Source of the DNA: Minisyncoccia bacterium
GTDB taxonomy: Bacteria; Patescibacteriota; Minisyncoccia; Phycocordibacterales; UBA9973
DNA length: 64,000 nucleotides
Direction of reading: 5' to 3'
Assembly: GCA_049287305.1 (NCBI GenBank)
Contig: JBAQFO010000009.1
Coordinates: forward strand, 108,558 to 172,557
Every line of letters begins with the position of its first letter. Positions within the stretch are counted from its first letter, which is position 1. The notes under the pieces are model-generated. The model did not search any database and was not told the origin of the DNA. It was given only the letters and a program-made list of their open reading frames with translations. Both the position numbers and the translations under genes were made by a program. Of this stretch, positions 2,461 through 44,485 are shown piece by piece.

Positions 2461-4545
<2,085 letters not shown>

Positions 4546-4591: not shown

Positions 4592-4632
4592 AATAGGGCA
4601 TAAAAAGAAAGAGGAGGCCGTCGCGTAATGCG
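4592..4632 (-). terminator. Rho-independent terminator (minus strand) after the small-ORF pair in the GC island
   Basis: Reverse strand forms a 13-bp stem (one mismatch, one GU) with a taa loop, followed by a U-rich tract (ctctttcttttta). Confidence 0.5.
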
Positions 4633-4737
4633 ACAGCCTCCAGTCCCCTGATTCTATCCGACGCTATACAGCCTCGGTTGAGTCGTCGAGGAGACGACTC
4701 ATTTACCTCCCACTCGTCTGACAGGAGGAAACACAAT

Positions 4738-4916: not shown

Positions 4917-4942
4917 TGATTTTTACCTTCTCCTTGTCCTGT

Positions 4943-17537: not shown

Positions 17538-17550
<13 letters not shown>

Positions 17551-18134
17551 TTAAACAACAACTCTGACAGCTCTATATCATAATTCCCGGAACCTTGCTT
17601 CCAAGAAACCGTGGAAAAAATTTTCACTTCATTGGGATTAGCGCCAGCAACATATCTTATTTTTCTAACAAAACCGGAAAGTTGCCCGGTATATCCGTAC
17701 TGCCCAGAAGTAGAGTCGTAACGAAGTTCCGGACAACCACCTGAAGGGCAAGCTTGAAAGGCTATGTCTAAAACAGGCTGGGAGTTATCGGTAAAGTTCA
17801 AGTTGTCGGCATTATAGTAACATCCCGGAGCAAGTTCGCAGGAAGCTAGATTGGTTTTAAATTCATTCCAGCCCGCGGTTGCGGATGTGGCGTGATAAAT
17901 GACGTAAGTATCTCTTTTGTTTCTTGTAAATTCTACCGCCTCTTGGGCCAAATATCCTGCCAGTATTTTCTTTTTTGCATATCCGGTATCTGAAATACCT
18001 TGGCTTAACGCCACCAAAAGTCCTAAAATGGATATTGTGAAAATTGAGATAGCCACCAATGTTTCCACCAAAGTGAAACCTTTTGTTGCTTCTCCTCCCC
18101 TATTTTTATTTTTTTGTTTAAAAAATTTATACAT
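17538..18134 (-). CDS. Type IV minor pilin (prepilin-type N-terminal cleavage/methylation domain)
   Basis: KGFTLVETLVAISIFTISILGLL is a class III signal peptide with Glu5. Confidence 0.75.
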
Positions 18135-18140
18135 GATATT

Positions 18141-18728
18141 TTAAATATCTACCGCCCGTTGCGACACGGCAGTTTGTAAATAAAAAGGGGTAGTCGCATT
18201 GTCTTTAAGTGTTATTTTTCCGGAAATTTTAATGAAGATAAGCGGTTGTTGCGTATTTCCGGGCGGAGGTTCAGCACCCAAAATAGAAAAGGAAAATTTT
18301 TCAACCTCCACCTCGGCCGGAGTAAGCGGGAAAATAGTGGCGCCGTCGGTTGATTTTTTAATAATTCCGTTTTCCACGTAATAAACCCACTGGTCAGTGT
18401 TGTCGTCCGGGTCGCCATTTTCTGCCTCAAAAGCAATCCCGACAACCCCATCTTCACAACTTCGAGCAGTAAAAGGCTGGGGAAGAGATGCTTGGTTTGC
18501 GACAAGGCAGTGATAGTTATACCCCGTTCGGAGACTTCTAGAAATGTCCTCCATCACAAAACTCAGGTTATCCATAATGGACCTCATGCCTTGGGATTTT
18601 TTGTGTAACAAGTTGGCGTTAAGCAAGGCGCCCATCCCAAGCATCACAATAATGACAAACAACGAAACAGCTATCATTGTTTCTATAATCGTATACCCGG
18701 ATTCTTTTTTTATAGTTTTTTTCGGCAT
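18141..18728 (-). CDS. Type IV minor pilin (PilW/PilV-like)
   Basis: SGYTIIETMIAVSLFVIIVML is a prepilin N-terminal motif with Glu5. Confidence 0.75.
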   Translation of the reverse strand: MPKKTIKKESGYTIIETMIAVSLFVIIVMLGMGALLNANLLHKKSQGMRSIMDNLSFVMEDISRSLRTGYNYHCLVANQASLPQPFTARSCEDGVVGIAFEAENGDPDDNTDQWVYYVENGIIKKSTDGATIFPLTPAEVEVEKFSFSILGAEPPPGNTQQPLIFIKISGKITLKDNATTPFYLQTAVSQRAVDI

Positions 18729-18734
18729 GTTAAA

Positions 18735-19346
18735 TTAATCTACTTCCACTCTTCCAGAACGATACACCTTAATCAAGGCTTGCACCCCCTTGGGAGACTC
18801 AACCGTTATCTGAACATAGTCCGCATTATTATATTTCGTACCCCCAGAAAGTAGTCCTGAGGCTAAAGTTGCAGCAGAGCCAATCCTGGAGAAACTTATC
18901 GTTAGATCTTCCAGGGCAGTGCTCGTGTTGTCCTGGAAGTGAACAGCCAATCCCTTAATGAAGTTATTTTTTGTAATGGAAACCTTGCTCAAACACTCAC
19001 TAGTGCAGTCGGTTCCTTCAAAAAAATTCTGATTGTCTAAGTCGGCGAAGTAAATAAAGCTCTTGTTGAGGGACGCAGGGTTGATATCAAAATAAACCCC
19101 ATAAGCAGGCTTCCAGGTAGCCGGTGCGCCTGAAGGAGGAATAAACCCCGAAAGGGATGATTTTTGCGCTTCTACTATTTTCAGAGCTATGTCATTTGCT
19201 AAATTATTTACATCCACCCGAGCTTGAAAATCCCCATAATTAAACATCGCAACCGTGGACACAACGGAAAAAATACTTAGAACAACGATTATCTCCACAT
19301 ACGTCATCCCCTTATTCTTTTTTAGCTTGGATACAAATATATTCAT
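18735..19346 (-). CDS. Type IV minor pilin (FimT/PilE-like). The start is set to the internal ATG that abuts the pilD stop
   Basis: ...KGMTYVEIIVVLSIFSVVSTVAM is a prepilin motif. The listed ORF start at 19391 would overlap pilD by 44 nt, so MNIFVSKLKKNKGMTYVE at 19346 is more plausible. Confidence 0.65.
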   Translation of the reverse strand: MNIFVSKLKKNKGMTYVEIIVVLSIFSVVSTVAMFNYGDFQARVDVNNLANDIALKIVEAQKSSLSGFIPPSGAPATWKPAYGVYFDINPASLNKSFIYFADLDNQNFFEGTDCTSECLSKVSITKNNFIKGLAVHFQDNTSTALEDLTISFSRIGSAATLASGLLSGGTKYNNADYVQITVESPKGVQALIKVYRSGRVEVD

Positions 19347-19347
19347 A

Positions 19348-20136
19348 TTAAAAAAGGTGCAGGTCCATAAGAAATGCGAGCAGTACTCCAAGCGCTAAAT
19401 AGGGAGCAAAAGGAATTTCGCTTTTAAATTTATAATGCTTTGAAAAAATTATAAGCAGAAGTCCTGCGACAGCACCAATCCAAAAAGCAACAATTACGCC
19501 GGAAATCGCAAGTGAAAATCCCGTCAGCCAACCCAACCCAACAAGCAGCTTCGCGTCGCCAAGCCCCATCCATCTTCCGGAAGACACAAGCCACAACAAA
19601 GCAAAGGGCGCCGCAATGAGGGGACCTGACAAAAATTGCATTAAATATGGTAGGTGGAAATATGGCAATAAATTGCCCGAATTATCAAAGAAAAACAACC
19701 CAATAAAGCCGACAATACCTAAGGTTAGGGATAGAGCATCCGGAATTATTTTATGCTTTAAGTCATAAGCGGATATCACCACCAGAAGAGAGAAGGCCAA
19801 TGTGTAGAAGGCATAAGTAACCGCAAACGCATAAGTGGAGATAAAGAAAATATCTTGAAACTTTAAAAATAAAGCGGCAAAAATAATTCCTACGGCAAGC
19901 TCCACCAGCGGGTACTGAATTGAAATTTTTGTTTTACAATTTCTACATCTCCCCAACAACCCTACATAACTAAACAGAGGAATAAGCTCAACCCAAGAAA
20001 GCTGGTTGCGACACGACATGCACGCGCTTCGTCCGCCAAAAGATTTTTTTGTATGCAACCGCAAGATTACCACATTCAAAAAACTTCCAATAATTAGACC
20101 CAGGACAAAGAAAATAAATGTAATAGCGGTAATCAT
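19348..20136 (-). CDS. pilD: Prepilin peptidase / N-methyltransferase PilD (A24 family). Start set to the internal ATG (MITAIT...)
   Basis: IIGSFLNVVILRL...CMSCRNQLSWVELIPLFSY (zinc-ribbon Cys pairs) and a multi-TM body. The ORF extends to 20190, but that would overlap pilA1. Confidence 0.8.
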   Translation of the reverse strand: MITAITFIFFVLGLIIGSFLNVVILRLHTKKSFGGRSACMSCRNQLSWVELIPLFSYVGLLGRCRNCKTKISIQYPLVELAVGIIFAALFLKFQDIFFISTYAFAVTYAFYTLAFSLLVVISAYDLKHKIIPDALSLTLGIVGFIGLFFFDNSGNLLPYFHLPYLMQFLSGPLIAAPFALLWLVSSGRWMGLGDAKLLVGLGWLTGFSLAISGVIVAFWIGAVAGLLLIIFSKHYKFKSEIPFAPYLALGVLLAFLMDLHLF

Positions 20137-20140
20137 AAAT

Positions 20141-20614
20141 TTAATTGCACAAATATGTGGCCGGGTTAATCGCTGAGCCGACGACGGCATTCACCACCTT
20201 AGCTGCTCCTCGATTGTCTACACACCATGATGTATTGGGAGTTTGGGTCAAACCCACTGCAATCGCCCAGTTGTCTTTGGAATTATAGCAAGAGTTGCCA
20301 TTTCCCCTTTTGGTGGCTTCTGTCACAGAATCTGCAACAACCTTATTTGCAGAAAACATACTGGTTCCTGAGATATTATAGGAGGGACAAACCCCGGTCA
20401 CATTGCTGCCTCCGGCAGGCAAATACGAACTTCCATTATCCAAATAGAAAATTTCCGACTGATTAACAATTGTCCGGAGGTTGGATTTTACCGCCGCGTC
20501 ATTACCTTTTCCTTTTGCGGCACTAAGCGACACTAAGACAACCGACGCCAATATCCCAATGATAGCAACAACCACCAAGAGTTCAATCAGCGTAAAACCT
20601 TTCTTTAAATTCAT
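20141..20614 (-). CDS. pilA: Type IV major pilin (PilA-like), paralog 1
   Basis: MNLKKGFTLIELLVVVAIIGILASVVL is a canonical class III leader plus N-terminal helix with Glu5. The C-terminus carries a Cys pair. Confidence 0.85.
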   Translation of the reverse strand: MNLKKGFTLIELLVVVAIIGILASVVLVSLSAAKGKGNDAAVKSNLRTIVNQSEIFYLDNGSSYLPAGGSNVTGVCPSYNISGTSMFSANKVVADSVTEATKRGNGNSCYNSKDNWAIAVGLTQTPNTSWCVDNRGAAKVVNAVVGSAINPATYLCN

Positions 20615-20673
20615 TTTATATAGATAATATTATAATAAAATTCCTCATTATATTGTAACATATTCCGCCAAAA

Positions 20674-20712
20674 CAAAAACCACTCAAAGCCATGGCTTTG
20701 AGTGGTTTTTTT
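20674..20712. terminator. Bidirectional rho-independent terminator between the pilin paralogs
   Basis: Perfect palindrome aaccactcaaagcc-atgg-ctttgagtggtt with A-run 5' and T-run 3'. Confidence 0.6.
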
Positions 20713-20732
20713 ATACACAAACTAAACACTTA

Positions 20733-21149
20733 CTAACAAGCTGTAGTGGCTGTGTTTCCTGTTCTTTCTTTGGAAGCGCCTGTTGAATCCACGCACCAAG
20801 ATTGAGCTGGAACTGTCTTCAAAGGAACAGCTGCTGCCCAAGCGGAAGTACTGTCAAGGCAAAAAGTTGCTCCACCGCTAGCTTGACCCGCTGCAGCAAG
20901 CGCTGCAAGTATATTGGTGTTCGCACATACTCCATCATAACCAACGCTGTCTGTAGGAGTTTCTACTGTATCATAAATCAATTCTGCTTGTGCGCGCATA
21001 TTGGCCAAGTTTGCTTTTACTGCAGCGTCAGCGCCTTTTGCACGCGCTGAGTTCAATGACGCAAGCACCACCGACGCCAATATCCCAATGATAGCAACAA
21101 CCACCAAGAGTTCAATCAGCGTAAAACCTTTCTTTAAATTCATTTTCAT
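20733..21149 (-). CDS. pilA: Type IV major pilin (PilA-like), paralog 2
   Basis: MKMNLKKGFTLIELLVVVAIIGILASVVLAS. The first ~26 codons are nucleotide-identical to paralog 1 and the C-terminal domain diverges. Confidence 0.85.
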   Translation of the reverse strand: MKMNLKKGFTLIELLVVVAIIGILASVVLASLNSARAKGADAAVKANLANMRAQAELIYDTVETPTDSVGYDGVCANTNILAALAAAGQASGGATFCLDSTSAWAAAVPLKTVPAQSWCVDSTGASKERTGNTATTAC

Positions 21150-21312
21150 AATAATTTTTTAATCTTTCAGCCTTTCAGGCCGAACCGCCCATTAGATTAC
21201 GGACGGAAAATAATAATAAAATTCGACTTATTTTTAATGTATTTATTATAGCATATAGCTAAAAATCCATCCGCAAGTCAGTTATCCACAGCTACCCGTA
21301 GAACTGAAAAAT

Positions 21313-22521
21313 CTAGCTAATGCTTCCAGCCATATTGTAGATAGGCATCAGAACGGAAACCAACAGCACCCCAACGCCTAATCCGAGCACAACAATCATC
21401 ACAGGCTCAATAAGGCCTACTAGAGTATCCACCGCATCATCTACTTCTCTTTTGTAAAAATCTGTCATAGTTTTCAAAATAGACCCGAGAGAGCCGGTTT
21501 CTTCTCCTACCATCACCATCTGCACCATAATAGGCGGTATGTGTTCGCTATGCTTTTCAAATGCAGCCGAAAGAGCAAGTCCAGATTTAACCCCCTCTGC
21601 CACTTCCACTAATAGATTTTTATAAACCAGACTCCCCACAACTTCTGCGGTAATGTCTATGGCTCGGACAATAGGCACACCCGAAGAAAGCATGGTGTTT
21701 AAGTTGTCTGTTATTCTGGAAAGATACAATTTCTTATATAAGTCACCAACAGCGGGCACGGAAAGTCTCAATGAGTCCAGATATACTTTCCCTTTTGGGG
21801 TTGTGGTTAATCGCCACACCCAGATAGCCAAAAGCACCAGGAAAATAAGAGCGAAAAAACCATAGTTAACAAAGAAGCTGGAAATACCAATAATTATTTT
21901 GGTAAAGAACGGCACTTCTTGTCCAGAGTCCATAATAATAGCCGCCAGTTTCGGGATGACAACGGTAAACATCAAAGTCATCACGACAAAAAAAGTAATA
22001 ACAACAAAAACTGGGTAGATGAGAGCGTTCTTGGTTTTAGAAGTGAGGGCGTATTGACGGTCTAAATATTCAGCCAAATGCAAAAAAGTTAAGTTTAATT
22101 TTCCGGTTTCTTCTCCCACCTTTACCATGTTTATGTAAAAATCAGAAAACACGTCAGGGTGTCGGGCGAGCGCGCCCGAAATGGAAACCCCGGCTTCCAA
22201 ATCATCCCCTATTTGGGTAAGCTTGCGTCCCAAGAATTTATTCTCGGTGTTTGTGGCAAGCATTGTGAAAGATTTAAGAGCCGAAACTTGCGCTTCAAAT
22301 AAAGTTGCTATTTGGCGTGACAAAACCACCACATCTTTAGCCTTTACTCTTTCAAAGAAAGACATTTGAAAGATGGATTTTTTCTCGGCTTCTTCGTTGA
22401 TAGAAAGAATCACCAGCCCTCGGCGCTGGAGTCCGCTAATGGCTATGTCTTGGTTTGGAGCGTCAATTTCTCCTTCTTTGTTTGCTCCTTCCGCGTCTAT
22501 GGCTTTGTATTTGAATAACAT
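21313..22521 (-). CDS. pilC: Type IV pilus inner-membrane platform protein PilC (GspF family)
   Basis: Duplicated GspF domains (…FSDFYINMVKVGEETGKL… and …IMVQMVMVGEETGSL…) and 3 TM segments. Confidence 0.85.
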   Translation of the reverse strand: MLFKYKAIDAEGANKEGEIDAPNQDIAISGLQRRGLVILSINEEAEKKSIFQMSFFERVKAKDVVVLSRQIATLFEAQVSALKSFTMLATNTENKFLGRKLTQIGDDLEAGVSISGALARHPDVFSDFYINMVKVGEETGKLNLTFLHLAEYLDRQYALTSKTKNALIYPVFVVITFFVVMTLMFTVVIPKLAAIIMDSGQEVPFFTKIIIGISSFFVNYGFFALIFLVLLAIWVWRLTTTPKGKVYLDSLRLSVPAVGDLYKKLYLSRITDNLNTMLSSGVPIVRAIDITAEVVGSLVYKNLLVEVAEGVKSGLALSAAFEKHSEHIPPIMVQMVMVGEETGSLGSILKTMTDFYKREVDDAVDTLVGLIEPVMIVVLGLGVGVLLVSVLMPIYNMAGSIS

Positions 22522-22532
22522 GGCAGAATAAA

Positions 22533-23591
22533 TTAAATCATCCGCTCTAACCCTTTTGGATTAAGCGAATATTGATAAGCGTTTTCAATTGAAATTTCTC
22601 CCGCCCGCACAAGTTCAAGCAGCGAATGGTTTAAGTCAACCATTCCTGACTCGGTACCGGTTTCTATAACTACATCTATTTCGTGGGTGCGTTTTTCCCT
22701 TATAAGATTGGAAACCGCGTTGTTGTTCAGCAAAAGCTCATATGCCGGCACAAGTCCGCCCGCAATCCGGGGAACAAGCCTCTGCGAAAAAATACCGAGA
22801 AGAGAAGCTGCAAGCTGAGAGCGAATCTGGTCCTGCTGGTTCCCTGGGAAGGAATCAATTATTCTATCAATGGTCTGAGAAGCGTTGTTGGTATGAAGGG
22901 TGGAAAGAACGAGGTGCCCTGTTTCCGCCGCCGTAACGGCCGTAGAAATTGTTTCGGGGGTGCGCATCTCCCCTATCATAATTACGTTCACATCTTCGCG
23001 GAAAACTTCTTTAAGAGCAGTGTGGAAATCCTTGGTGTCAATGCCCACCTCTCGCTGGTTAATTATGGATTTGTTCGCGGTGTATACATGTTCTATGGGG
23101 TCCTCAATTGTTATGATATGACGGGCTTGTTCATTGTTTATCAAGTTAACCATTGAAGAAAGAGTTGTGGATTTTCCTTGCCCCACGGGTCCTACAACCA
23201 AGAAAAACCCCTGCTTCTTGCGAGCCAGCTCCGCCAGTATGGGCGGTAAGCGCAACTCAGTCATTGACTGCACTTTGGGAACCAACCGAAAAACAATGTT
23301 TATCAAACCTTTTTGAAAAAACGCATTCCCTCGCAATCTCGCCTCTCCGCGAAAATCATAAGAAAAATCGGCGTCAAAGTTTTCTTTAAAGCTTTCAATT
23401 TTCTTTTCACTTAAAATTTCTGACAAGAATCCCAGCACGTCTTCTTGAGTCAGCACCGGGTGCTTCGCAAGGCTTATAAGCTCTCCTGATACCCTTATGG
23501 AAGGAACCCGTCCAGCGCCCAAGTGGAGGTCTGAGCCGTTTTCTCGTATTACATTTAAAATAAGTTCTTCAAGATTTTTTTTATAGTCCAT
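22533..23591 (-). CDS. pilT: Type IV pilus retraction ATPase PilT
   Basis: N-terminal SDLHLGAGRVPSIRVSGEL, Walker A VVGPVGQGKSTT, Asp box, Walker B IMIGEMR and His box at a PilT-like length (352 aa). Confidence 0.85.
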   Translation of the reverse strand: MDYKKNLEELILNVIRENGSDLHLGAGRVPSIRVSGELISLAKHPVLTQEDVLGFLSEILSEKKIESFKENFDADFSYDFRGEARLRGNAFFQKGLINIVFRLVPKVQSMTELRLPPILAELARKKQGFFLVVGPVGQGKSTTLSSMVNLINNEQARHIITIEDPIEHVYTANKSIINQREVGIDTKDFHTALKEVFREDVNVIMIGEMRTPETISTAVTAAETGHLVLSTLHTNNASQTIDRIIDSFPGNQQDQIRSQLAASLLGIFSQRLVPRIAGGLVPAYELLLNNNAVSNLIREKRTHEIDVVIETGTESGMVDLNHSLLELVRAGEISIENAYQYSLNPKGLERMI

Positions 23592-23595
23592 GGAT

Positions 23596-24006
23596 TTAAA
23601 TATTTACTTTAGGTGCACCTGTTTTATTTTCTAAAATTTTTACTACCTGCGCTATCACTTCAGCGGGAGTGGAATTTGCTTTGACAATATACCCGGCAAC
23701 CCCAAGTCTCCCCCCCTCTTCTACGTCTTTTGGTTCGCTTTTATTGGACAAAATTACTTTCATGCAATTCGGACACAACTTTTCATCATTCATTTTTTGC
23801 ATTGCTTCAAACCCGTTCATCTCTGGCATAATTATATCCATTAATAAAAGATCCGGAGAAAGTCCATTTTTTAATTTATCTAACGCATGAATTCCGCTCG
23901 TAGCCGTATAAACCTCAAAATTATTTTGGCTGAACTTGAGCGCATACATGTCCAAGAGGAAGTTGTCGTCATCAACTATTAAAATTTTTTTCTTATCTTT
24001 GTCCAT
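23596..24006 (-). CDS. Single-domain CheY-like response regulator (receiver only)
   Basis: KILIVDDDNFLLDMY...DLLLMDIIMPEMNGFEAM...K is the receiver fold with the phospho-acceptor Asp context. It sits between pilT and pilB. Confidence 0.75.
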   Translation of the reverse strand: MDKDKKKILIVDDDNFLLDMYALKFSQNNFEVYTATSGIHALDKLKNGLSPDLLLMDIIMPEMNGFEAMQKMNDEKLCPNCMKVILSNKSEPKDVEEGGRLGVAGYIVKANSTPAEVIAQVVKILENKTGAPKVNI

Positions 24007-24068
24007 ATTTTTTGAGTGAGGCCTAATTGATTATACTACAAAACAGGCTCTATGGCACACCAGGCGCG

Positions 24069-25811
24069 TTATTCGTTTTCGTTGTTGAAATTATAAACTT
24101 CAGTAAATGGAATCAATCCTTGCAGAGATTTAAATATGGCGTCTTCCCTCATCATAAGCATGCCATTTTTTCTAGCAACTTTATAAATTTCAGTGTTTAC
24201 GGGATTTTTCAATATTACTGATTGCATTTCCTTGTCCACCTTGAACATTTCAAAGACGGCAATACGTCCTCGGGTGCCGGACGGGCATTCCGCCGACGGA
24301 ACTATTTCATACATTTTGTCCCCTATTTTTGGTTTAAATTTTTCCGGTAAATCTTTTATCTGCTCCTCAACCTGAGTTCTAACGCTTTCGTCTATTGGAA
24401 CTTCTTTCCGACATGCCGGATAGGTCATGCGCGCCAAGCGTTGAGCGATAGATACTATAAGGGTCGGGGCTATTAAATATGGGTCAACGCCCATATCCAC
24501 CAGGCGCGGAATGGCTCCCACGGCGCTATTGGTGTGAAGCGTGGAAAGAACGAGATGACCAGTAAGGGCAGCCTGAATAGCGAGCTGCGCGGTTTCTTTA
24601 TCGCGAATCTCTCCCACCATTATAATATCCGGGTCCTGTCTTAAGATAGACCGGAGTCCCGAAGCAAAAGTGTATCCTATTTCCGGCATCATTTGCGATT
24701 GGTTTATATCAGGCATGTGATATTCCACTGGGTCTTCCAAAGAAACTATGTTGCTGCTTTCTTTGTCAAGCTCATTCATCATGGAATACAGAGTGGTTGA
24801 TTTACCTGAACCCGTAGGTCCGGTAATCAAAATAAGCCCATAAGGTCTTCTTATAGCCTCTCTTAGTATGTTTAAATTAATCTCCGACAAACCAAGTTGG
24901 TCTATAGGTTTAACTCCTTTTTCCGAATCCAATATTCGCATCACAACTTTTTCTCCGTAATATGCAGGCATAGTAGATACGCGAAAATCTATTTTATGGC
25001 CGTCAATGTTGGCACTGAAAGACCCGTCTTGCGGTTTTCGTTTTTCATCAAGCCGGAGTTTTGCCAGTATTTTTACGCGGGCCACAATTCCCCCATACAC
25101 GTTCGGGGGCAAGACTATGGTTGTATGCAGCATACCGTCCACCCGAAAACGCACTTTAACTTTTTCCCCCGTATGTTCTATGTGTATATCAGATGCATTT
25201 CCTTCTATGGCTGTGCGCAGAATAACAGCCACAATCTTTATTACCGGAGCGTCTTCAACTATTTTTTGCTCCTCCCCGGGTTTAACGTTTTTTATTTCCT
25301 TACTGAGATTCTCCTCGCTTAAATTCTTAACATCAGAAAGTTCTTCTTGGGTGATTTCGTCCAAAGCTTCTTCGACTTGGTTGCCTATGCCTCTATAAGT
25401 TTGCATTACGCTGTCGTAGTCGGTCTTTGAAATTAGAAACACTTTAAAAGGAATGCCGATTTTATTTGAAATAAATTGAAGAGCATCCATCGCTTGGAGA
25501 TTTTCCGGGTCCATGACGCCAACTTCCAAAACTCCGTCTTTCAACTCTATGGGCGCAAAATGGTAATGCATAGCCGAATCCTCAGAAATATATTTCAATA
25601 CGTCAAAAGACATTCCTTGAACATCTAGTTTTTTCGTTGGAATACCTAAATATTGCCCCTTTACTTCAAGAAGTTTTTCTTCCGGAATTCCCAGCTCAAC
25701 AAGAACCCCATCTATGTCTCCAGCATAATCCTGCTTTGCGCGATTTTTAATTTCTCCTATTTGGCTTTGGTTGATTATGCCTTTTTTTGCTAATTCTTCT
25801 AAAAAACTCAT
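24069..25811 (-). CDS. pilB: Type IV pilus assembly ATPase PilB (GspE family)
   Basis: N-terminal GspE-N domains, Walker A LITGPTGSGKSTTLY, Walker B IIMVGEIRD, a tetracysteine motif and a 580-aa length. Confidence 0.85.
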   Translation of the reverse strand: MSFLEELAKKGIINQSQIGEIKNRAKQDYAGDIDGVLVELGIPEEKLLEVKGQYLGIPTKKLDVQGMSFDVLKYISEDSAMHYHFAPIELKDGVLEVGVMDPENLQAMDALQFISNKIGIPFKVFLISKTDYDSVMQTYRGIGNQVEEALDEITQEELSDVKNLSEENLSKEIKNVKPGEEQKIVEDAPVIKIVAVILRTAIEGNASDIHIEHTGEKVKVRFRVDGMLHTTIVLPPNVYGGIVARVKILAKLRLDEKRKPQDGSFSANIDGHKIDFRVSTMPAYYGEKVVMRILDSEKGVKPIDQLGLSEINLNILREAIRRPYGLILITGPTGSGKSTTLYSMMNELDKESSNIVSLEDPVEYHMPDINQSQMMPEIGYTFASGLRSILRQDPDIIMVGEIRDKETAQLAIQAALTGHLVLSTLHTNSAVGAIPRLVDMGVDPYLIAPTLIVSIAQRLARMTYPACRKEVPIDESVRTQVEEQIKDLPEKFKPKIGDKMYEIVPSAECPSGTRGRIAVFEMFKVDKEMQSVILKNPVNTEIYKVARKNGMLMMREDAIFKSLQGLIPFTEVYNFNNENE

Positions 25812-25831
25812 AGTTATATTTCAATCTTAAC

Positions 25832-26578
25832 TTAAGGAGTAACTGTAAACTGCCAGCTGCTGGTACTCTTACCTTTGCTGTTTGTTACAAAAAAACTATA
25901 TACTCCTTGCTTCACTGCCTCAGGTTTAGTTAGGCCGAGGGGCGTAACAGATGAAGGAACAGTAAAGACAATGGAACTGCCGTCAGTAGAGTTTATGTTT
26001 TGTATAGGTGATGATTTAAAGCTTACTTTATTGCCAGACTGGCTAAAACCAGAACCGTTGATAGTTACTACCGTTCCGACTGGTCCGGTTAAAGGCGTAA
26101 CAGATGTAATGCTTAGGGGGTCATTAAAATAATTCACGGGTGGATTATTAGTAGAAGGAGGAGCCGTTGGAGGAGAAGGTTCTGTAGGAAGATTGGTTAA
26201 AAGAGGGTCCAAAGAAACCTCCTCCTTATCAGAACCAATCGGTGCAAAAGGGTTCGGCCTTCCCTCTGTTCCGTCAGGCACTAGAACAATACTTGAGTCA
26301 CGAAGACTATTCCAAGCCGTATCCGCAAAAATAGAATCATCCAACTTTATATTTCTCACGCTTAACAACAACGTCAGAAATTCTTGAGCCACAAGGTTTT
26401 GCGTGTTATCTAAAGCTCCTACCGCATTGGTTCCGCCAACATCAGGTAAATTGGAAGACGGCGAAGACGTTACCAGGTTGGTGTCGGGAGCTTCGGGTTT
26501 CTGCACAAAGAATATATATATCAGCACGAAAACCGCTGCAATTGAGACAAATATTATAATGTTTCTAATTTTTGGCAT
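25832..26578 (-). CDS. Membrane-anchored protein with P/T-rich linker and C-terminal IPT/TIG (Ig-like) domain, sitting at the PilP position
   Basis: Single N-terminal TM (IIIFVSIAAVFVLIYIFF), a PSPPTAPPSTNNPP linker, and SITSVTPLTGPVGTVVTINGSGFS...VSF...FTVP, the IPT/TIG pattern. Confidence 0.5.
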   Translation of the reverse strand: MPKIRNIIIFVSIAAVFVLIYIFFVQKPEAPDTNLVTSSPSSNLPDVGGTNAVGALDNTQNLVAQEFLTLLLSVRNIKLDDSIFADTAWNSLRDSSIVLVPDGTEGRPNPFAPIGSDKEEVSLDPLLTNLPTEPSPPTAPPSTNNPPVNYFNDPLSITSVTPLTGPVGTVVTINGSGFSQSGNKVSFKSSPIQNINSTDGSSIVFTVPSSVTPLGLTKPEAVKQGVYSFFVTNSKGKSTSSWQFTVTP

Positions 26579-26604
26579 TTGTTTATCTTAAATGTCTCTC
26601 AATT

Positions 26605-27207
26605 TTAATTCTTCAACCAATAAGTCTTAATGGTAAAGGTGTAATTATATGTATCCGAAGACGGGGCTACCCCAAGCCCAATGGATGGAGCCGTTTTGGA
26701 GGAAAAAACAATGGAGGATATATCTACTATGCGAAGATTGCTTTCCAAGTCTCTCGTGAAATTAATAAAATTATCGTAGCTTCCCGAAGTTGAGAATTCC
26801 AAATCGAAAACTCCGAAGTCTTTATTGGCGTGTTTTGGCGTCCCCCCGGGCAAGACTCCCTGTGGTTTCGTTGGGTCAGTTACTTTTGTTTCTGTGTTGT
26901 ATTTAACGTCTTTTAGACTCATGCCATAAGGCGCGGCTATCTGTTCTATTTCTAGAATCAAGCGAATATTGTCAACGTTTTGTGGTAGAAACCTTGTTAA
27001 TTTATTCAAGTTTTCAGGGTTTATGGAGTTGAACTTAGCTGTCAATTTATCTCGTTCGCTTTCCAGCATCTTTGAATTGCCAAGTGCTTCGTTATAAGAT
27101 GCAACTTCCGCGTTCAGCACCTTTATTTCATTGAAAATAGGATTTGCGAACACGAAAAAAACAGCTATCGCGATTCCTATTAAAATAATCGGCATTATGA
27201 ATTTCAT
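26605..27207 (-). CDS. pilO: PilO-like pilus assembly protein
   Basis: N-terminal TM, coiled-coil region, PilO-like C-terminal domain and its position after pilN. Confidence 0.6.
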   Translation of the reverse strand: MKFIMPIILIGIAIAVFFVFANPIFNEIKVLNAEVASYNEALGNSKMLESERDKLTAKFNSINPENLNKLTRFLPQNVDNIRLILEIEQIAAPYGMSLKDVKYNTETKVTDPTKPQGVLPGGTPKHANKDFGVFDLEFSTSGSYDNFINFTRDLESNLRIVDISSIVFSSKTAPSIGLGVAPSSDTYNYTFTIKTYWLKN

Positions 27208-27212
27208 AAACT

Positions 27213-27809
27213 TTAAATATCTGCTGAAATCGTTTGTTTGTAATTAACAAAATTTGAATCAACGGAAAAATCCAAATCAAAAACAACATTGCCGTCATTG
27301 TCCAGCGTTAAGTTTGAAAAAATCGGGTCAATCATGTTTTTGTTTTGAGCGAAAATATCTGACTGCAGAGCTATAGAACGATATCCGACCGCTACTCCGG
27401 ACATTTGGACAGAAACAACGGAATCTTGGTCGTCTTCCAAAGTGTAGGTAAACCTGGTGAAGCCCACCGTCTTCATGGTTGTTTTTTCAAGCAATTCAAA
27501 AATAGGAGTTATGGAAATGTGATTTGCTAAAATTTCACTGGAGGCGCGGAGTCTTTTGTCTAAAACTTGAAGCTCTGAAATCTTGGAGGGCTCAAAGCGG
27601 TTCTGCGCCAAAGTTAAATCATTTTCCATTTTCGCGATTCTCTTCGCCGCAATTCCTTTGTAAAAATAAAGCCCACCGGAAGCAAGTAAAACAGTAAACA
27701 AAAGCAGTAAAGATATGATGAGCAAAAGGCTGACGGGACGCGACGAAGTATCACGTTCCTTGATGATAGGTTTTTTAGGTATAAATGATGTTTGAAAATT
27801 TTGCTCCAT
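27213..27809 (-). CDS. pilN: PilN-like pilus assembly protein
   Basis: Single TM (LLLIISLLLLFTVLLASGGLYFY) followed by a coiled coil, positioned after pilM. Confidence 0.6.
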   Translation of the reverse strand: MEQNFQTSFIPKKPIIKERDTSSRPVSLLLIISLLLLFTVLLASGGLYFYKGIAAKRIAKMENDLTLAQNRFEPSKISELQVLDKRLRASSEILANHISITPIFELLEKTTMKTVGFTRFTYTLEDDQDSVVSVQMSGVAVGYRSIALQSDIFAQNKNMIDPIFSNLTLDNDGNVVFDLDFSVDSNFVNYKQTISADI

Positions 27810-27842
27810 TTTCCTTGTTCAATACTTATTACATTATCGCAC

Positions 27843-28970
27843 TTATTGTAATTTTCGCAATGCCAAACCGAGAGCAACGGCAAATTCGGGGCCCATAGAT
27901 AGAAGAACCTTCTCCAGGAAAGCCGGAGCCTCAACTTTGGAAAACGGACGCCCCGTCTCAATCTCGGCGCGGAAGTTATTTGCCGCCACTTCCTTTAGGC
28001 CTTTTAGGAGAGCTCCCCCTCCGGTGAATATTACCTTGCTGATAGTTCTGTCATTTCTCTTTTCGTATCCTAATAATACATTATTTGTTTCTGAAAAGAT
28101 ATAATCTATGTGCACTTTTATGATATCCGCCAAGGTTTTTTCCGCAGGATTCCCAAAAAGACCAAAATCCTTTTTCATTTTCTCGGCGTCGGCAAAAGGG
28201 ATGCTTAGTGATTTGGAAATGGAGTTAGTTATGTCAGCTCCTCCTCGGTCTATGGTGTGATAACCTTTGACCATGCCAAACTCCACGATAGAAAGTTTGG
28301 TGCGTGAAGCTCCAAAATCCATCAAGAGAACCGGAGAGAGTTCGTGTTCAAAATTCGCGCGAATGGAAGAAAATATTTCAATTTCAAAAAAAGCAGGTGT
28401 TAAGTCGCACTGCGACAGAATGGAACGCTGTTTCCCTACCGCTTCGTTTTGCGTAGCGACGACCAGCACATTTATTTTGTCCACAGGAACTAGTGGCAAA
28501 TCCGGATTGTTCATTTCCTCAAAAGACTGTTCTCGTTTTGGAAGCACGAAATAGTCTATGGACACCTCGGTGATAGGAACCGGAATATATTTGCGGGCTT
28601 CCGTGGGAACTATGGACGCTATTTCGTCTTCACTTATTTGCGCCGGCAGGTCAATAATGAAAATTAAACTTGATTGGATGGGAACAGAAAGAGCCACGTT
28701 CTGCCCTGTTACGCCGGATTGTTTTAGGACTTCCTTGAGAGCAAGAGCGGATTTTTCCACCGACAGATTAGTGGCCTGTCCGGCTTCAATATCCGCATAA
28801 GGGCCAAGCGCTATGGCTCCGTATGTCTCCAGCACCGCCTTGCCTCCTTTTCTTTTGATTTCCACTACCTTTATGGATGAAGACCCAATATCAATTCCAA
28901 TAGCGGAATCCGATGCTCCCCCTCCCGCCTTATTAAAACCTGAAAAAATATTTTTTAGCAAATTACTCAT
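27843..28970 (-). CDS. pilM: PilM, actin-like ATPase of the type IV pilus alignment complex
   Basis: IGIDIGSSSIKVVEI... is the actin/FtsA-like fold, and the gene is the first in the pilMNO run. Confidence 0.8.
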   Translation of the reverse strand: MSNLLKNIFSGFNKAGGGASDSAIGIDIGSSSIKVVEIKRKGGKAVLETYGAIALGPYADIEAGQATNLSVEKSALALKEVLKQSGVTGQNVALSVPIQSSLIFIIDLPAQISEDEIASIVPTEARKYIPVPITEVSIDYFVLPKREQSFEEMNNPDLPLVPVDKINVLVVATQNEAVGKQRSILSQCDLTPAFFEIEIFSSIRANFEHELSPVLLMDFGASRTKLSIVEFGMVKGYHTIDRGGADITNSISKSLSIPFADAEKMKKDFGLFGNPAEKTLADIIKVHIDYIFSETNNVLLGYEKRNDRTISKVIFTGGGALLKGLKEVAANNFRAEIETGRPFSKVEAPAFLEKVLLSMGPEFAVALGLALRKLQ

Positions 28971-30336: not shown

Positions 30337-30992
30337 AAGACGTTGTGGAAGTATTTATGGCGCATCCTTGGTGTCATGAAGTCATTGTTGTTTCCGACGG
30401 ATCTACGGATAAAACAGGAGAGGTGGCGCGAGGAGCCGGAGCTATCGTGATAGAACTCCCGCAAAACGAAGGGAAAGGAGAAGCCATGGACAAAGGAATC
30501 GCTGTCGCGAAGACCGATATAATTTTTTTCTCTGACGCGGATATCTTGGGATTAACCCCTGAAATAATTTCCAGCATCGCGGAGCCTGTGTTGGATGGCA
30601 GATATGCAATGTCTATGGGAATTCAAGGCCAATCAATCTACTGGTTAAATCGTATTTTGCATTTTTTCCCCCTGATTGGAGGGCAAAGAGTCGTTACTAA
30701 AGAACTTTGGTATGCAGTGCCAAAGAAGTTTCGCACCCGTTTTCAAATAGAAACTGCGCTAAATTATTACAGTAAAAAGTTCGGGAAAACAGCTCATTTT
30801 ACCCTCTTCCCCGACATGAGACAGGTAAAAAAGGAAACTAAATACGGATTCCTGCGAGGGTTTTGGATGCGGATAAAAATGTTTGCCGAGATATTTTTTG
30901 TTTCTGTGCGCCTATATGTTTTTGACCGGCTATTTACCGCAATTAAAATCAAGCCTCAAAATCTAAAAATTATTGCCAAATATCCCAAATAG
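30276..30992 (+). CDS. Family 2 glycosyltransferase (GT-A fold; Dpm1/GpgS-like)
   Basis: IPAWNEERTI...VIVVSDGSTDKT...FSDADI is the GT2 DxD-type pattern. It overlaps the 3' end of the DedA gene by about 60 nt. Confidence 0.7.
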   Translation: MARQKIYSVVIPAWNEERTIKDVVEVFMAHPWCHEVIVVSDGSTDKTGEVARGAGAIVIELPQNEGKGEAMDKGIAVAKTDIIFFSDADILGLTPEIISSIAEPVLDGRYAMSMGIQGQSIYWLNRILHFFPLIGGQRVVTKELWYAVPKKFRTRFQIETALNYYSKKFGKTAHFTLFPDMRQVKKETKYGFLRGFWMRIKMFAEIFFVSVRLYVFDRLFTAIKIKPQNLKIIAKYPK

Positions 30993-32199
30993 CTCCGGCT
31001 ATGTTCTTTGGTTTTCCCTCCAGAGCGTAGTAGTGCAAGTCAATGAATGGCAGAGTATTGCACTCAATAATCCCCCACTTTTGCGAATCTGATGCTACCG
31101 CCGGGTCGGGAACAATGCAATCAAAACCGATAACAGGCAAATTAACCGCCCTTGCCGCTTCTTCCAAAATTGGGATAAAGCTTGGGTGAAGTTCATCCAG
31201 CATCTCTTTCGTTAAGCCTCCAAAAAGCCTTCCGGTGCGGTGGGTAAGCGACAAGCGAACCCCTGCCGGCACGACATCTTCCATTTTAAAACCCGAACGT
31301 AAAACGTAATTTTTTAATTCTTCGTTGACTAATACTTTCTCCACCCTCTCCGGACGATTGGAATCTTTTTCGGCGATAAGTTCCTCCAACGTTTTTTCTC
31401 CGTCTCCCACAACGAAAGGAGTGGCTCCTCTGTAAAAACCCATCAATTTCCCTTTTACGAATGTGGCTCGGCATACATATCCTTCCAAATGTTCCTCTGC
31501 CACCAACTGCGCGCAGATTTGCTTGGCTATACCAATCCCGGCTTTGAACTCAGAAATGTTGCGGATATTTGTAACGGTATGCCTTCCCCTAGACCCAACT
31601 CGCGGCTTCACTATTATCGGAGTTTTGAATTTTGAAAATATCTGCTCCGTTTTATTAAGAGAAAAAACGCTAAATTCTACATATTCGGGAACCGGGATGT
31701 TTTTTTTAATAAATTCCTGTTTTAGCACGAACTTATCATCCCAATTTTCTACCATATTTAAATCCTTCATGGGAATAGGTAAACTATTAAAGTAAACGGA
31801 TTTCCCGCGGAGCTTGGCGCGATACATGTCCGTGGTTTTGCCAAACATTATCAAATGTTTCATATCTATCCCCCGCCTCCGAGCCTCCTCCCAAATAACC
31901 CGAGAGCGGAAAGTTCTAGCACTATCTATATCGTCCGACAATTTGGCCAGCCGAAAAAATAACAGGATATTAAAAAAAGAAAACAAAAGCCAATCAACAA
32001 AATCTTTCAAGAAATCGGGCGCATGCCTGGTCACCCCCATTATGTGGTCGTCAACGGCCATAGACACCAGGCTGGAAAAGTAAAAAAGTCGGTGGTTAAT
32101 GGGCGCGTCCCCGCAATAAACGCAGGGGCTTTTTTTTCGGCTGGGTTCAGTATTTGTTTTGGAATTTTTTTTCATAAAGGCAAAGAGACAGCCCAGCAT
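30970..32199 (-). CDS. ATP-grasp domain protein (cyanophycin-synthetase N-terminal / RimK-like ligase fold) with N-terminal hydrophobic region
   Basis: IIVKPRVGSRGRHT...GIIECNTLPF... shows ATP-grasp B/C subdomain patterns. The N-terminal ~120 aa are unassigned. Confidence 0.55.
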   Translation of the reverse strand: MLGCLFAFMKKNSKTNTEPSRKKSPCVYCGDAPINHRLFYFSSLVSMAVDDHIMGVTRHAPDFLKDFVDWLLFSFFNILLFFRLAKLSDDIDSARTFRSRVIWEEARRRGIDMKHLIMFGKTTDMYRAKLRGKSVYFNSLPIPMKDLNMVENWDDKFVLKQEFIKKNIPVPEYVEFSVFSLNKTEQIFSKFKTPIIVKPRVGSRGRHTVTNIRNISEFKAGIGIAKQICAQLVAEEHLEGYVCRATFVKGKLMGFYRGATPFVVGDGEKTLEELIAEKDSNRPERVEKVLVNEELKNYVLRSGFKMEDVVPAGVRLSLTHRTGRLFGGLTKEMLDELHPSFIPILEEAARAVNLPVIGFDCIVPDPAVASDSQKWGIIECNTLPFIDLHYYALEGKPKNIAGAIWDIWQ

Positions 32200-32298
32200 A
32201 AATGACAGACTGTCTCTTTTAGAACGAGAAAAACATTTTAGTGTCCTCCGATCATAGTATTATTAGAGTTGAAAATTTACTAATATACGACCTCAATA

Positions 32299-32328
32299 AT
32301 TATACCATAGCTAGTTTGGTTTAAACAA
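32299..32328 (-). promoter_or_regulatory. Sigma70-like promoter (TTGTTT-18nt-TGgTATAAT) for the ATP-grasp gene, inside the 3' end of the NUDIX gene
   Basis: Reverse strand reads TTGTTTaaaccaaactagctatggTATAAT, with an extended -10 TG. Confidence 0.35.
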
Positions 32329-32901
32329 TTCCTCCAGCTTCTTCCTCTTTTCCTGGTCATATTTAGCTTCCAAAAGCTGGGGAACTATTTCTTGCTCTAC
32401 AAAGCGACTTTCCTTGTTGGTTGCCATCTGGATTAACTCATCTAAGGTTACCGACAATAGCTCTATTTTTTCTCCTCCATCCAGGTTCATCTCGGAAACC
32501 TTTTTTAAACCCTTAGCTATGAATACATATACGGGCCAATCGGTCTTCGGAATAGAGTTCTGGGCGTGCCATAGAATATATTCTTCTGCTTCGTATCCGC
32601 TCTCTTCAAGAAGTTCCCGCTTGGCGGCATCCAAGACATCTTCTCCGTCATCTACTCCTCCCCCCGTAGCCCCAATAAATGGGCGCTTCCCTGGCTGTTC
32701 TTGTTGGGTAAGAATTATTTTGCCGTCAGGGAGAACAGGGAAAACCGTTACGGTATCTCGGCGCCTTAATCCTTAAAAAATAGTCCTCGCCCCATCGTAA
32801 AGCTCTTGCTCCCAATGATACACATCAAATACAACTCCTCGAAAAACTCTTTTTGCGTCGGGAGGAATCGGCTGATTGGGTTCTGGGCGATTTATTTCCA
32901 T
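32311..32901 (-). pseudogene. NUDIX hydrolase interrupted by an in-frame TAA at codon 43
   Basis: Reverse-strand ATG at 32901 gives MEINRPEPNQPIPPDAKRVFRGVVFDVYHWEQELYDGARTIF-TAA-GLRRRDTVTVFPVLPDGKIILTQQEQPGKRPFIGATGGGVDDGEDVLDAAKRELLEESGY... (NUDIX box) in the same frame. The ORF finder reports only the downstream 107 aa. Confidence 0.6.
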
Positions 32902-32907: not shown

Positions 32908-33276
32908 TTAATTTTTTTCTTTTAAAATATCCCTGATTTCGGTTAACAGTTTTTCTTGCTTATTTTCTTCTTCGGCTTTGGCTTCTTCTTCTTTCTTTTT
33001 AAACCTATTGATAAATTTCACTATCAAGAAAATGAAAAAGGCGATAATCAAGAAATCTACCGCGGACTTTATGAAGTTTCCTATAAGCACTGGACCTATC
33101 TTCCACTCGCTAAAACTTGCGACACTTAAGAATGGCGTCAGCGCTGGAAAAATTATGTCATTTACCAACGAAGAAACTATCTTCTGGAACGATGCTCCGA
33201 TAGCAAGACCCACGGCAAGGTCTATGACATTCCCCTTAACCGCAAATTCTTTAAATTCCTTCAAAAAGTTGGACAT
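32908..33276 (-). CDS. mscL: Large-conductance mechanosensitive channel MscL
   Basis: MSNFLKEFKEFAVKGNVIDLAVGLAIGASFQKIVSSLV is a near-canonical MscL N-terminus, with 2 TMs. Confidence 0.9.
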   Translation of the reverse strand: MSNFLKEFKEFAVKGNVIDLAVGLAIGASFQKIVSSLVNDIIFPALTPFLSVASFSEWKIGPVLIGNFIKSAVDFLIIAFFIFLIVKFINRFKKKEEEAKAEEENKQEKLLTEIRDILKEKN

Positions 33277-33294: not shown

Positions 33295-33384
<90 letters not shown>

Positions 33385-33454: not shown

Positions 33455-33545
33455 GGAGCCGTGTCAGAGTGGTCTAACGTACCTCTTTGCTAAAGAGGCA
33501 GGGGCTTTATACCCCCTCGCGAGTTCGAATCTCGCCGGCTCCGCA
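33455..33545 (+). tRNA. tRNA-Ser (anticodon GCU), type II
   Basis: Acceptor GGAGCCG/CGGCTCC, anticodon stem CCTCT/AGAGG with loop TTGCTAA, long variable arm, T-arm GCGAG-TTCGAAT-CTCGC, discriminator G. Confidence 0.85.
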
Positions 33546-44220: not shown

Positions 44221-44411
44221 GGGTTTATAATCATATCAGAAACGGAATGTTCCGCAACCGTTCAGTCATTATACACGACCCTTCCTTTGGAAAGTAAGTG
44301 GATAACCCGTATTTTTTGCCAAATTTCGCAAAAGAAAACACCGAAAAACAGAAGACAAGAGGTGATTTTTCTGAGCCAGTATTTATAAGCTCCTTATGAG
44401 ACAAAAAAGTG

Positions 44412-44485
44412 TCCGTCCTCTTGGATTCGAACCAAGGACCCCAGAGGTATAAGCTCTGTGCTCTAACCAACTGAGCTAAGGACGG
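44412..44485 (-). tRNA. tRNA-Ile (anticodon UAU)
   Basis: Hand-folded 74-nt cloverleaf: acceptor CCGTCCT/AGGACGG, D-arm GCTC-AGTTGGTTA-GAGC, anticodon stem CAGAG/CTCTG with loop CTTATAC (UAU), V-loop GGGTC, T-arm CTTGG-TTCGAAT-CCAAG, discriminator A. Resembles Ile2-type tRNAs. Confidence 0.8.

What the first reader, a model, noticed from the sequence alone, without database searches (positions are those of the whole stretch)
32311..32901. NUDIX hydrolase gene with a single in-frame TAA at codon 43 (otherwise intact, same frame on both sides)
Hand translation of the minus strand gives a continuous NUDIX protein (…WEQELYDGARTIF*GLRRRDTVTVFPVLPDGKIIL…GGGVDDGEDVLDAAKRELLEESGY…) broken only by TAA at 32775-32773. 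The position would be a Glu/Gln in homologs, so a single G/C-to-T change explains it. It is either a very recent nonsense mutation, a sequencing error or a stop-codon readthrough site. The downstream 154 codons are still clean, which argues against old decay. A sigma70-like promoter for the neighbouring ATP-grasp gene is embedded in its 3' end.
Basis: seen in the sequence. Interest (0 to 1): 0.5.

Follow-up and report, generated by a model that had tools for sequence, protein, structure and literature searches.

The report
Recently inactivated NUDIX gene (nonsense mutation)
A nucleotide-sugar-cleaving (NUDIX) enzyme gene in a tiny uncultured Patescibacteria bacterium has been switched off by a single real G-to-T change that makes a stop codon, and close relatives have deleted the same gene, so this is ordinary gene loss caught at an early stage.

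Summary
The minus-strand frame 32901-32311 encodes a 196-codon NUDIX protein broken only by TAA at 32775-32773 (codon 43). The protein is an ADP-ribose/ADP-sugar pyrophosphatase-like enzyme (NudF/NUDT5 type) with a perfect Nudix box.

Codon 43 is Glu in 120 of 120 homologous proteins and in 68 of 68 homologous DNA loci (GAA or GAG). The lesion is therefore one G>T change, GAA>TAA.

The stop is not an assembly slip. Two per-run Logan assemblies (SRR28062869 and SRR28062879) are 100% identical to the window and both carry TAA.

It is not a recoding site either:
- TAA ends 46 of 63 long ORFs in the window.
- No homologue examined has a stop at this codon.
- The context (UAA, U before, G after) is unfavourable.
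- There is no nearby RNA structure and no usable restart codon.

The gene shows no other decay, so the event is young. Among relatives that keep the MscL-[NUDIX]-ATP-grasp gene order, one has the gene intact. One has deleted it, keeping only its last 20 nt plus the conserved promoter -10. A third lacks it at this position.

Verdict: a young nonsense pseudogene in a clade that is repeatedly losing this gene. Ordinary, low interest.

The parts
32311..32901 (-). Whole NUDIX (ADP-sugar pyrophosphatase-like) reading frame: 42 codons, TAA, 153 codons, TAG
32773..32775 (-). In-frame ochre codon TAA at codon 43. It replaces an invariant Glu (GAA/GAG in all homologues) and extends a T5 run to T6.
   Evidence: The same base is present in Logan contigs L090 and L093.
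32776..32901 (-). The 42 codons that can still be translated: the N-terminal segment, ending at Phe42. Phe42 aligns with the base-stacking Trp46 of human NUDT5.
32314..32772 (-). Untranslated remainder: 153 intact codons holding the whole Nudix fold. The first in-frame ATG/GTG/TTG is TTG at 32634, inside the Nudix box.
32593..32661 (-). Nudix box GGVDDGEDVLDAAKRELLEESGY (GX5EX7REUXEEXGU, residues 81-103). It is intact and is the only one in the 64-kb window.
32908..33276 (-). Upstream gene mscL. Its stop lies 6 nt before the NUDIX ATG, so the two are probably co-transcribed. The same order is seen in relative L096.
32297..32330 (-). 34-nt block: the last 6 NUDIX codons, TAG, and the extended -10 TGGTATAAT. 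It is 100% identical in relative L088/L089, which has deleted the rest of NUDIX against a flanking identity of about 75%.
30970..32175 (-). Downstream ATP-grasp gene (cyanophycin-synthase-like). The NCBI-annotated 401-aa form starts at ATG 32175. It served as the anchor for finding the source lineage and the syntenic relatives.

Best explanation
This is a genuine, evolutionarily young nonsense allele. In a Minisyncoccia (Patescibacteria/Parcubacteria) population, one G>T transversion turned the invariant Glu43 codon GAA into TAA in a NudF/NUDT5-type ADP-sugar pyrophosphatase gene. Ribosomes stop after 42 residues, at the aromatic residue of the base-recognition motif F-E-x3-R. The whole Nudix catalytic fold is therefore not made, and the gene is a null pseudogene. 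It has had no time to gather further lesions. It belongs to a pattern of repeated loss of this gene at the MscL-NUDIX-ATP-grasp locus in the clade.

Shown: the sequence facts, the invariance of Glu43, the reproducibility of the TAA, and the deletion in the sister lineage.

Inferred: the loss of function, and that the gene is dispensable for this organism.
For: 1. Glu at codon 43 in 120/120 homologous proteins and 68/68 DNA loci, 39 GAA and 29 GAG. The nearest contexts read ACT ATT TTT GAA; the window reads ACT ATT TTT TAA.
2. Logan per-run contigs L090 (SRR28062869, 3931 bp) and L093 (SRR28062879, 1020 bp) are 100% identical to the window and both carry TAA.
3. The surrounding assembly is clean. 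27 neighbouring ORFs were scanned against Pfam. The 22 with a hit showed no sign of truncation, though some matches are partial or weak, and 5 had no hit. The gaps hold small genes, tRNAs or tmRNA.
4. There is no sign of long relaxed constraint:
   - 3 of 89 deviations at columns conserved at 95% or more, against 1.14 +/- 1.64 in homologues.
   - The N- and C-terminal parts are equally conserved.
   - Against the syntenic orthologue in L096, NUDIX is 69.7% identical, compared with MscL 78.5%, ATP-grasp 72.8% and GT2 67.4%.
5. State of the gene in relatives sharing the gene order:
   - L096 has an intact 195-aa NUDIX between MscL and ATP-grasp.
   - L094/L095 have an intact NUDIX next to ATP-grasp.
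   - L088/L089, the nearest relative (ATP-grasp 80% identical), has window 32912-32331 replaced by 17 nt but keeps the last 20 nt of NUDIX.
   - The P0125 contig has only 195 nt between MscL and ATP-grasp.
   - The identity matrix groups (window, L088) and (L096, P0125), which implies independent losses.
6. Other decayed copies exist in the family: L011 has an in-frame TAA at invariant Gln67, and L029 keeps only a fragment.
Against: - No read pile-up could be inspected, so a minority intact allele or a strongly systematic miscall cannot be formally excluded.
- The G>T change sits directly after a T5 run. This is the pattern of Illumina 'post-homopolymer' errors (PMC8002175).
- The MAG and the Logan contigs may derive from overlapping read sets.
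- Loss of function is inferred, not measured.
- Only 64 kb of the genome was visible, so a second NUDIX copy or a suppressor tRNA elsewhere is not excluded.
- The grouping of relatives rests on pairwise identity, not on a phylogeny.
Confidence: 0.85

Rival explanations
1. Sequencing or consensus error: the true codon is GAA and the gene is intact. The T would be a systematic post-homopolymer miscall after TTTTT.
For: The change extends a T5 run to T6, the known Illumina post-homopolymer substitution pattern (PMC8002175). The gene is otherwise perfect.
Against: The same TAA appears in the window and in two per-run assemblies made with a different assembler, so T must be the majority base in both runs. 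The post-homopolymer error affects a small share of reads and only one read direction. No other broken gene was seen among 27 neighbouring ORFs. The gene is demonstrably dispensable in sister lineages.
Confidence: 0.07
2. Functional recoding: the UAA is read through by a near-cognate tRNA or by an ochre-suppressor tRNA encoded elsewhere, giving a low dose of full-length enzyme.
For: The downstream 153 codons are intact. Low-level translation past in-frame stops has been reported for Salmonella pseudogenes (PMC9122581). Only 64 kb of the genome could be checked for suppressor tRNAs.
Against: - TAA terminates 46 of 63 long ORFs here.
- No homologue examined has a stop at this codon.
- In Salmonella, readthrough mostly involved UAG, with C enriched at positions -1 and +4 and U found in 0% of cases at -1. 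Here the site is UAA with U at -1 and G at +4.
- There is no RNA structure (z = +1.05).
- The four tRNAs in the window have anticodons GGA, ACU, GCU and UAU.
- The usual near-cognate insertions at a UAA codon (Gln, Tyr or Lys, from general knowledge rather than any call here) would replace a Glu that is invariant in 120/120 homologues.
Confidence: 0.04
3. Split gene: the 42-aa N-terminal peptide and a separately initiated C-terminal Nudix domain are both made and assemble into an active enzyme.
For: The stop lies at the boundary between the N-terminal segment and the Pfam NUDIX domain, which starts at residue 47. AAGGA, a Shine-Dalgarno-like motif, overlaps and follows the stop.
Against: There is no ATG/GTG/TTG in frame until TTG at 32634 (codon 90), which lies inside the Nudix box. 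The +1 frame hits TAA after two codons and the -1 frame stops after 15 codons (read). All 120 homologues are single polypeptides of about 195 aa.
Confidence: 0.02

Closest known systems
Bacterial ADP-ribose pyrophosphatase NudF (Bacillus 9JAX/8WV3/8ZR8; Bdellovibrio 5C7Q)
   Same: Best solved relatives (E=1e-16 with the family profile). The alignment covers both the N-terminal segment and the Nudix fold (residues 16-182). Same length of about 185-195 aa and the same Nudix box. The stop aligns with the Glu of the R-E-I-V motif.
   Different: Sequence identity is low. NCBIfam equivalog cut-offs are not reached (NudE 41 bits against 169). The substrate is untested. The window copy is interrupted by TAA. 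It also has Gly where the family has Arg at residue 82, the first variable position of the Nudix box.
Human NUDT5 (ADP-sugar pyrophosphatase)
   Same: Profile alignment (95.5% probability) puts window F42-X43-x3-R47 onto NUDT5 W46-E47-x3-R51. In NUDT5, W46 stacks on the base, the E47 main chain hydrogen-bonds to it, and R51 contacts the base and sugar (PMC3203587).
   Different: Distant relative: only residues 37-106 align. The aromatic residue is Phe, not Trp. NUDT5 carries extra insertions.
Unitary bacterial pseudogenes made by a single nonsense mutation (for example in Salmonella Typhi and Paratyphi A, PMC9122581)
   Same: One in-frame stop in a gene that is intact in relatives, and the rest of the frame is still clean.
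   Different: Here the organism is an uncultured Patescibacteria MAG. The stop is UAA made by a G>T transversion, whereas the Salmonella cases were mostly C>T or G>A transitions. Sister lineages have already deleted the gene.
Programmed stop-codon readthrough or stop-codon reassignment
   Same: An in-frame stop followed by an intact, homologous reading frame.
   Different: No conservation of the stop in homologues, no stimulatory context or structure, and TAA is the normal terminator of the genome.

Membership tests
NUDIX hydrolase superfamily (PF00293) | Nudix box GX5EX7REUXEEXGU within a Pfam NUDIX domain match above the gathering score | tested here: met
   Pfam 53.6 bits against a cut-off of 21.1. 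The box GGVDDGEDVLDAAKRELLEESGY lies at residues 81-103.
NUDIX hydrolase superfamily (PF00293) | Uninterrupted reading frame that allows the domain to be translated | tested here: not met
   TAA at codon 43, upstream of the domain. The next in-frame start falls inside the Nudix box.
ADP-ribose/ADP-sugar pyrophosphatase (NudF/NudE/NUDT5 type) | Full-length similarity to solved ADPRases, including the N-terminal segment | tested here: met
   Residues 16-182 align to 8ZR8, 9JAX and 5C7Q at E about 1e-16.
ADP-ribose/ADP-sugar pyrophosphatase (NudF/NudE/NUDT5 type) | Base-recognition motif: aromatic-Glu-x3-Arg | tested here: inconclusive
   F42 and R47 are present and invariant in the family. The Glu position is the TAA codon.
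ADP-ribose/ADP-sugar pyrophosphatase (NudF/NudE/NUDT5 type) | NCBIfam equivalog score (NudE PRK11762; YffH/AdpP TIGR00052) | tested here: not met
   41 bits against 169, and 12.4 bits against 79.6. It works like an ADPRase by homology but cannot be filed as an equivalog.
ADP-ribose/ADP-sugar pyrophosphatase (NudF/NudE/NUDT5 type) | Hydrolysis of ADP-ribose or ADP-sugars | not testable with these tools
   An enzymatic assay is needed.
Programmed readthrough / stop reassignment | Stop codon conserved at the site in orthologues | tested here: not met
   0/120 proteins and 0/68 loci have a stop at this codon; all have Glu.
Programmed readthrough / stop reassignment | The stop codon is not used as the normal terminator, or a cognate suppressor tRNA is present | tested here: not met
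   46 of 63 long ORFs end in TAA. No UUA-anticodon tRNA is in the window. The rest of the genome was not visible.
Programmed readthrough / stop reassignment | Leaky context or stimulatory RNA structure | tested here: not met
   The site reads U-UAA-G. The fold z-score is +1.05. Compare the contexts reported in PMC9122581.
Unitary pseudogene by nonsense mutation | Disabling lesion relative to intact syntenic orthologues | tested here: met
   L096 has MscL, an intact 195-aa NUDIX and ATP-grasp. The window has the same order with TAA.
Unitary pseudogene by nonsense mutation | The lesion is real in the DNA of the population, not an artefact | tested here: met
   TAA is present in two per-run Logan assemblies, each 100% identical to the window. 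Allele frequencies at read level were not testable.
Unitary pseudogene by nonsense mutation | Absence of functional product | not testable with these tools
   Proteomics or a reporter assay is needed.

The most novel reading that the evidence does not exclude
The UAA is tolerated because a small amount of full-length enzyme is still made, by leaky readthrough or by an ochre-suppressor tRNA encoded outside the window. On this reading, the recurrent interruptions of this family (this TAA, and the TAA at Gln67 in L011) would reflect selected down-tuning of an ADP-sugar pyrophosphatase in Patescibacteria rather than simple loss.
Probability: 0.03. Interest if true: 0.55.

Novelty: already known. 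Interest (0 to 1): 0.14.

Why it matters
It matters little beyond annotation. The locus should be labelled a NUDIX pseudogene with an internal stop, not two small ORFs, and the 107-aa fragment called by gene finders is spurious. It is a tidy snapshot of reductive evolution in an ultra-small bacterium. Within one small clade the same gene is intact in one genome, hit by a nonsense mutation in another, and cleanly deleted in a third, while the promoter overlapping its 3' end is preserved. If the unlikely readthrough reading were true, it would be a rare bacterial case of UAA recoding.

Tried and rejected
- Exact-protein look-ups of MscL, of the 42-aa ORF and of P0121 found nothing.
- Scans of genome contigs and metagenome contigs with the NUDIX protein found only relatives at 71% identity or less, and no same-species sequence.
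- The viral-contig scan gave only distant NUDIX proteins.
- My early conclusion of 'no synteny' was wrong for the nearest relatives. It was revised after I used the ATP-grasp neighbour as the anchor.
- Genome-wide TAA reassignment is rejected.
- Relaxed-selection tests gave no signal.
- No RNA structure surrounds the stop.
- Frameshift rescue is rejected. Both sides of the stop are in the same frame, and the +1 and -1 frames terminate after 2 and 15 codons (read).
- Reinitiation is rejected. The next in-frame start is at codon 90.
- There is no second Nudix box in the window.
- Rfam found nothing in the ATP-grasp leader or in the 4540-4940 gap.
- No tRNA-Ser and no suppressor tRNA was found in relatives' loci.
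- A literature search for Patescibacteria plus Nudix gave nothing relevant.

Full report
**Observation.** On the minus strand, ATG at 32901 opens a frame of 42 codons. It is followed by TAA at 32775-32773, then 153 more sense codons in the same frame, then TAG at 32313-32311. The translated frame matches Pfam NUDIX (E=3e-14, residues 47-165). It aligns to solved ADP-ribose pyrophosphatases from residue 17 to 188, straight across the stop (profile search). The Nudix box GGVDDGEDVLDAAKRELLEESGY (residues 81-103, window 32661-32593) fits GX5EX7REUXEEXGU exactly and is the only such box in the window.

**What the gene is.** 1348 database proteins match at E<=1e-10. Those that carry a source name are from Patescibacteria/Parcubacteria. 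The 120 listed are about 195 aa long, and the best is about 72% identical. The family is strongly conserved, with 76% mean column identity among 33 members.

NCBIfam equivalog thresholds (NudE, YffH/AdpP) are not reached. I therefore call it NudF/NUDT5-like by homology, with the substrate untested. A profile alignment to human NUDT5 places window F42-[stop]43-x3-R47 on W46-E47-x3-R51. In NUDT5 those residues stack on and hydrogen-bond the nucleobase (PMC3203587). Translation therefore ends inside the base-recognition motif and before the entire catalytic fold.

**The lesion.** Codon 43 is Glu in 120/120 homologous proteins. It is Glu in 68/68 homologous DNA loci, 39 GAA and 29 GAG, down to 31% identity. 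The closest contexts read ACT ATT TTT GAA. The window reads ACT ATT TTT TAA. This is one G>T transversion that lengthens a T5 run to T6.

**Recoding is not supported.**
- TAA terminates 46 of 63 long ORFs in the window.
- The four tRNAs in the window have anticodons GGA, ACU, GCU and UAU.
- No homologue examined has a stop at this codon.
- The 141 nt around the stop fold no better than shuffles (z=+1.05).
- The context U-UAA-G is the opposite of what accompanied readthrough of Salmonella pseudogenes, which was mostly UAG with C at -1 and +4 and never U at -1 (PMC9122581).
- The next in-frame start codon is TTG at 32634, in the middle of the Nudix box.
- The +1 and -1 frames close after 2 and 15 codons (read).

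**Error or real?** Searches with the NUDIX protein itself found no same-species sequence. Searching with the downstream ATP-grasp protein found a 100% identical NCBI protein from a 'Minisyncoccia bacterium' MAG (P0121, MFZ2149836.1/MFZ3030080.1). It also found a cluster member present in Logan per-run assemblies.

Contig L090 (SRR28062869, 3931 bp) equals window 33322-29392. Contig L093 (SRR28062879, 1020 bp) equals window 33322-32303. Both match without a single mismatch, and both carry TAA at codon 43. The T is thus the assembled base in two runs with a different assembler.

The change matches the Illumina 'post-homopolymer' error pattern (PMC8002175). That is a per-read, one-direction error and should not win the consensus three times. 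The same context also favours real polymerase misalignment mutations; this point rests on established knowledge and was not tested here. The rest of the window looks clean. 27 neighbouring ORFs were scanned against Pfam. The 22 with a hit showed no sign of truncation, though some matches are partial or weak, and 5 had no hit. The larger gaps contain small genes, tRNAs or tmRNA.

**Age.** The gene shows no further decay. It deviates at 3 of 89 columns that are at least 95% conserved, against 1.14 +/- 1.64 for its homologues. The N-terminal and C-terminal parts are equally conserved relative to the family (ratios 0.85 and 0.90). Against the syntenic orthologue in L096, NUDIX is 69.7% identical. 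The flanking genes are in the same range: MscL 78.5%, ATP-grasp 72.8%, GT2 67.4%. The mutation is therefore young.

**Evolutionary context.** The gene order MscL - NUDIX - ATP-grasp - GT2 - VTT - PRTase - PilM is shared with L096, where NUDIX is intact at 195 aa. L094/L095 also have an intact NUDIX directly upstream of ATP-grasp.

The nearest relative by ATP-grasp identity (80%), L088/L089, has the same order but no NUDIX. Window 32912-32331 (582 nt) is replaced there by 17 nt. The next 34 nt are 100% identical to window 32330-32297, against about 75% identity in the flanks. That block comprises the last six NUDIX codons, TAG, and TGGTATAAT. The remnant encodes the family's conserved C-terminal ELFKP motif, so it derives from a deleted NUDIX gene.

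A fourth relative (the P0125 contig) has only 195 nt between MscL and ATP-grasp. Pairwise identities group (window, L088) and (L096, P0125). This implies two independent deletions plus the window's nonsense mutation. The grouping rests on identity, not on a tree. Elsewhere in the family, L011 has an in-frame TAA at invariant Gln67, and L029 retains only residues 55-124. The gene is thus repeatedly lost.

**Promoter remark.** The extended -10 TGGTATAAT (32307-32299) lies after the NUDIX stop codon, with the TATAAT hexamer starting 7 nt after it. Only a weak -35-like TTGTTT (32328-32323) lies within the coding sequence. The consensus scan did not report it. However, the TGnTATAAT is invariant in four relatives and sits at a fixed distance from a conserved leader. 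It also survived the deletion in L088, which supports function. The neighbour is an ATP-grasp enzyme by similarity to cyanophycin synthase structures (E=1e-22). Pfam matches are sub-threshold.

**Verdict.** This is a real, young nonsense pseudogene of an ADP-sugar-pyrophosphatase-like NUDIX gene in a Minisyncoccia genome, in a clade that is losing this gene. The mechanism is premature termination at codon 43, before the catalytic domain. My estimates are: genuine nonsense allele about 0.85, sequencing error about 0.07, functional readthrough about 0.04, split gene about 0.02. This is a known kind of feature and of low interest.

Noticed in passing
window 32173-32307 (-): Between the conserved extended -10 (32307-32299) and the ATP-grasp start (ATG 32175-32173) lies a leader conserved in four relatives. 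It has GGAGG (32249-32245), then a mini-ORF ATG TTT TTC TCG TTC TAA (32236-32219, MFFSF*). The relatives have MFSL*, MFCLF* and MFVLF*. The mini-ORF's stop abuts a terminator-like hairpin, AAAGAGACAG...CTGTCTCTTT (32219-32182), which shows one compensatory G-C to A-U change in L096 and is followed by a T-rich tail. This looks like a leader-peptide attenuator or a small RNA. Rfam has no match. The 409-aa ORF start at 32199 lies in the hairpin loop; NCBI's 401-aa start at 32175 is more likely.
   Followed up: partly
window 33298-33384 (-): A type-II (long variable arm) tRNA-Ser whose anticodon loop reads UUACUAA, so the anticodon is ACU with A34. ARAGORN and Rfam (57 bits) both call it. It sits 70 nt from a divergently oriented, sequence-dissimilar tRNA-Ser(GCU) at 33455-33544 (+). 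To my knowledge an A34 tRNA for the two-codon AGY box is unusual. It is not an ochre suppressor. Both Logan contigs start at 33322, inside this gene, so they do not cover its anticodon.
   Followed up: partly
window 44411-44485 (-); also L020 4375-4450: tRNA-Ile with anticodon UAU, which reads AUA directly rather than through a modified CAU tRNA. It is present in the window and in a related Patescibacteria locus.
   Followed up: no
window 4540-4940 (-): A 400-nt stretch with no convincing coding ORF, in the most GC-rich 2-kb bin of the window. It folds better than shuffles (z=-2.58) and ends in a strong GC hairpin followed by a T-run. No Rfam family matches it. It may be an unclassified structured RNA.
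   Followed up: partly
L011 5001-5429 (CAYOUH010000012.1): A 59%-identical orthologue in a 57% GC MAG carries its own in-frame TAA at the invariant Gln67 (GAA TAA CAA CAG, where the family has E-Q-E-Q). It is otherwise open to the contig end. This is a second lone-TAA copy in the family.
   Followed up: partly
L029 about 5001-5210 (JAYSTI010000008.1, Lloydbacteria MAG): Only residues 55-124 of the NUDIX protein, including the Nudix box, are recognisable (74% identity). The flanks have no homology, so this is a gene fragment.
   Followed up: partly
L092 1-1190 (ENA GROS21 scaffold_43800): The ATP-grasp orthologue matches in two overlapping pieces and is called as 321-, 77- and 94-aa genes. This suggests a frameshift or an assembly error in that contig.
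   Followed up: no
window 17538-28970 (-): A complete type IV pilus gene cluster lies next to the locus: PilM, PilO-like, a TIG-domain protein, PilB-like and PilT-like ATPases, PilC, prepilin peptidase and N-methyl pilins. The PilM side of the cluster is syntenic in relatives.
   Followed up: no
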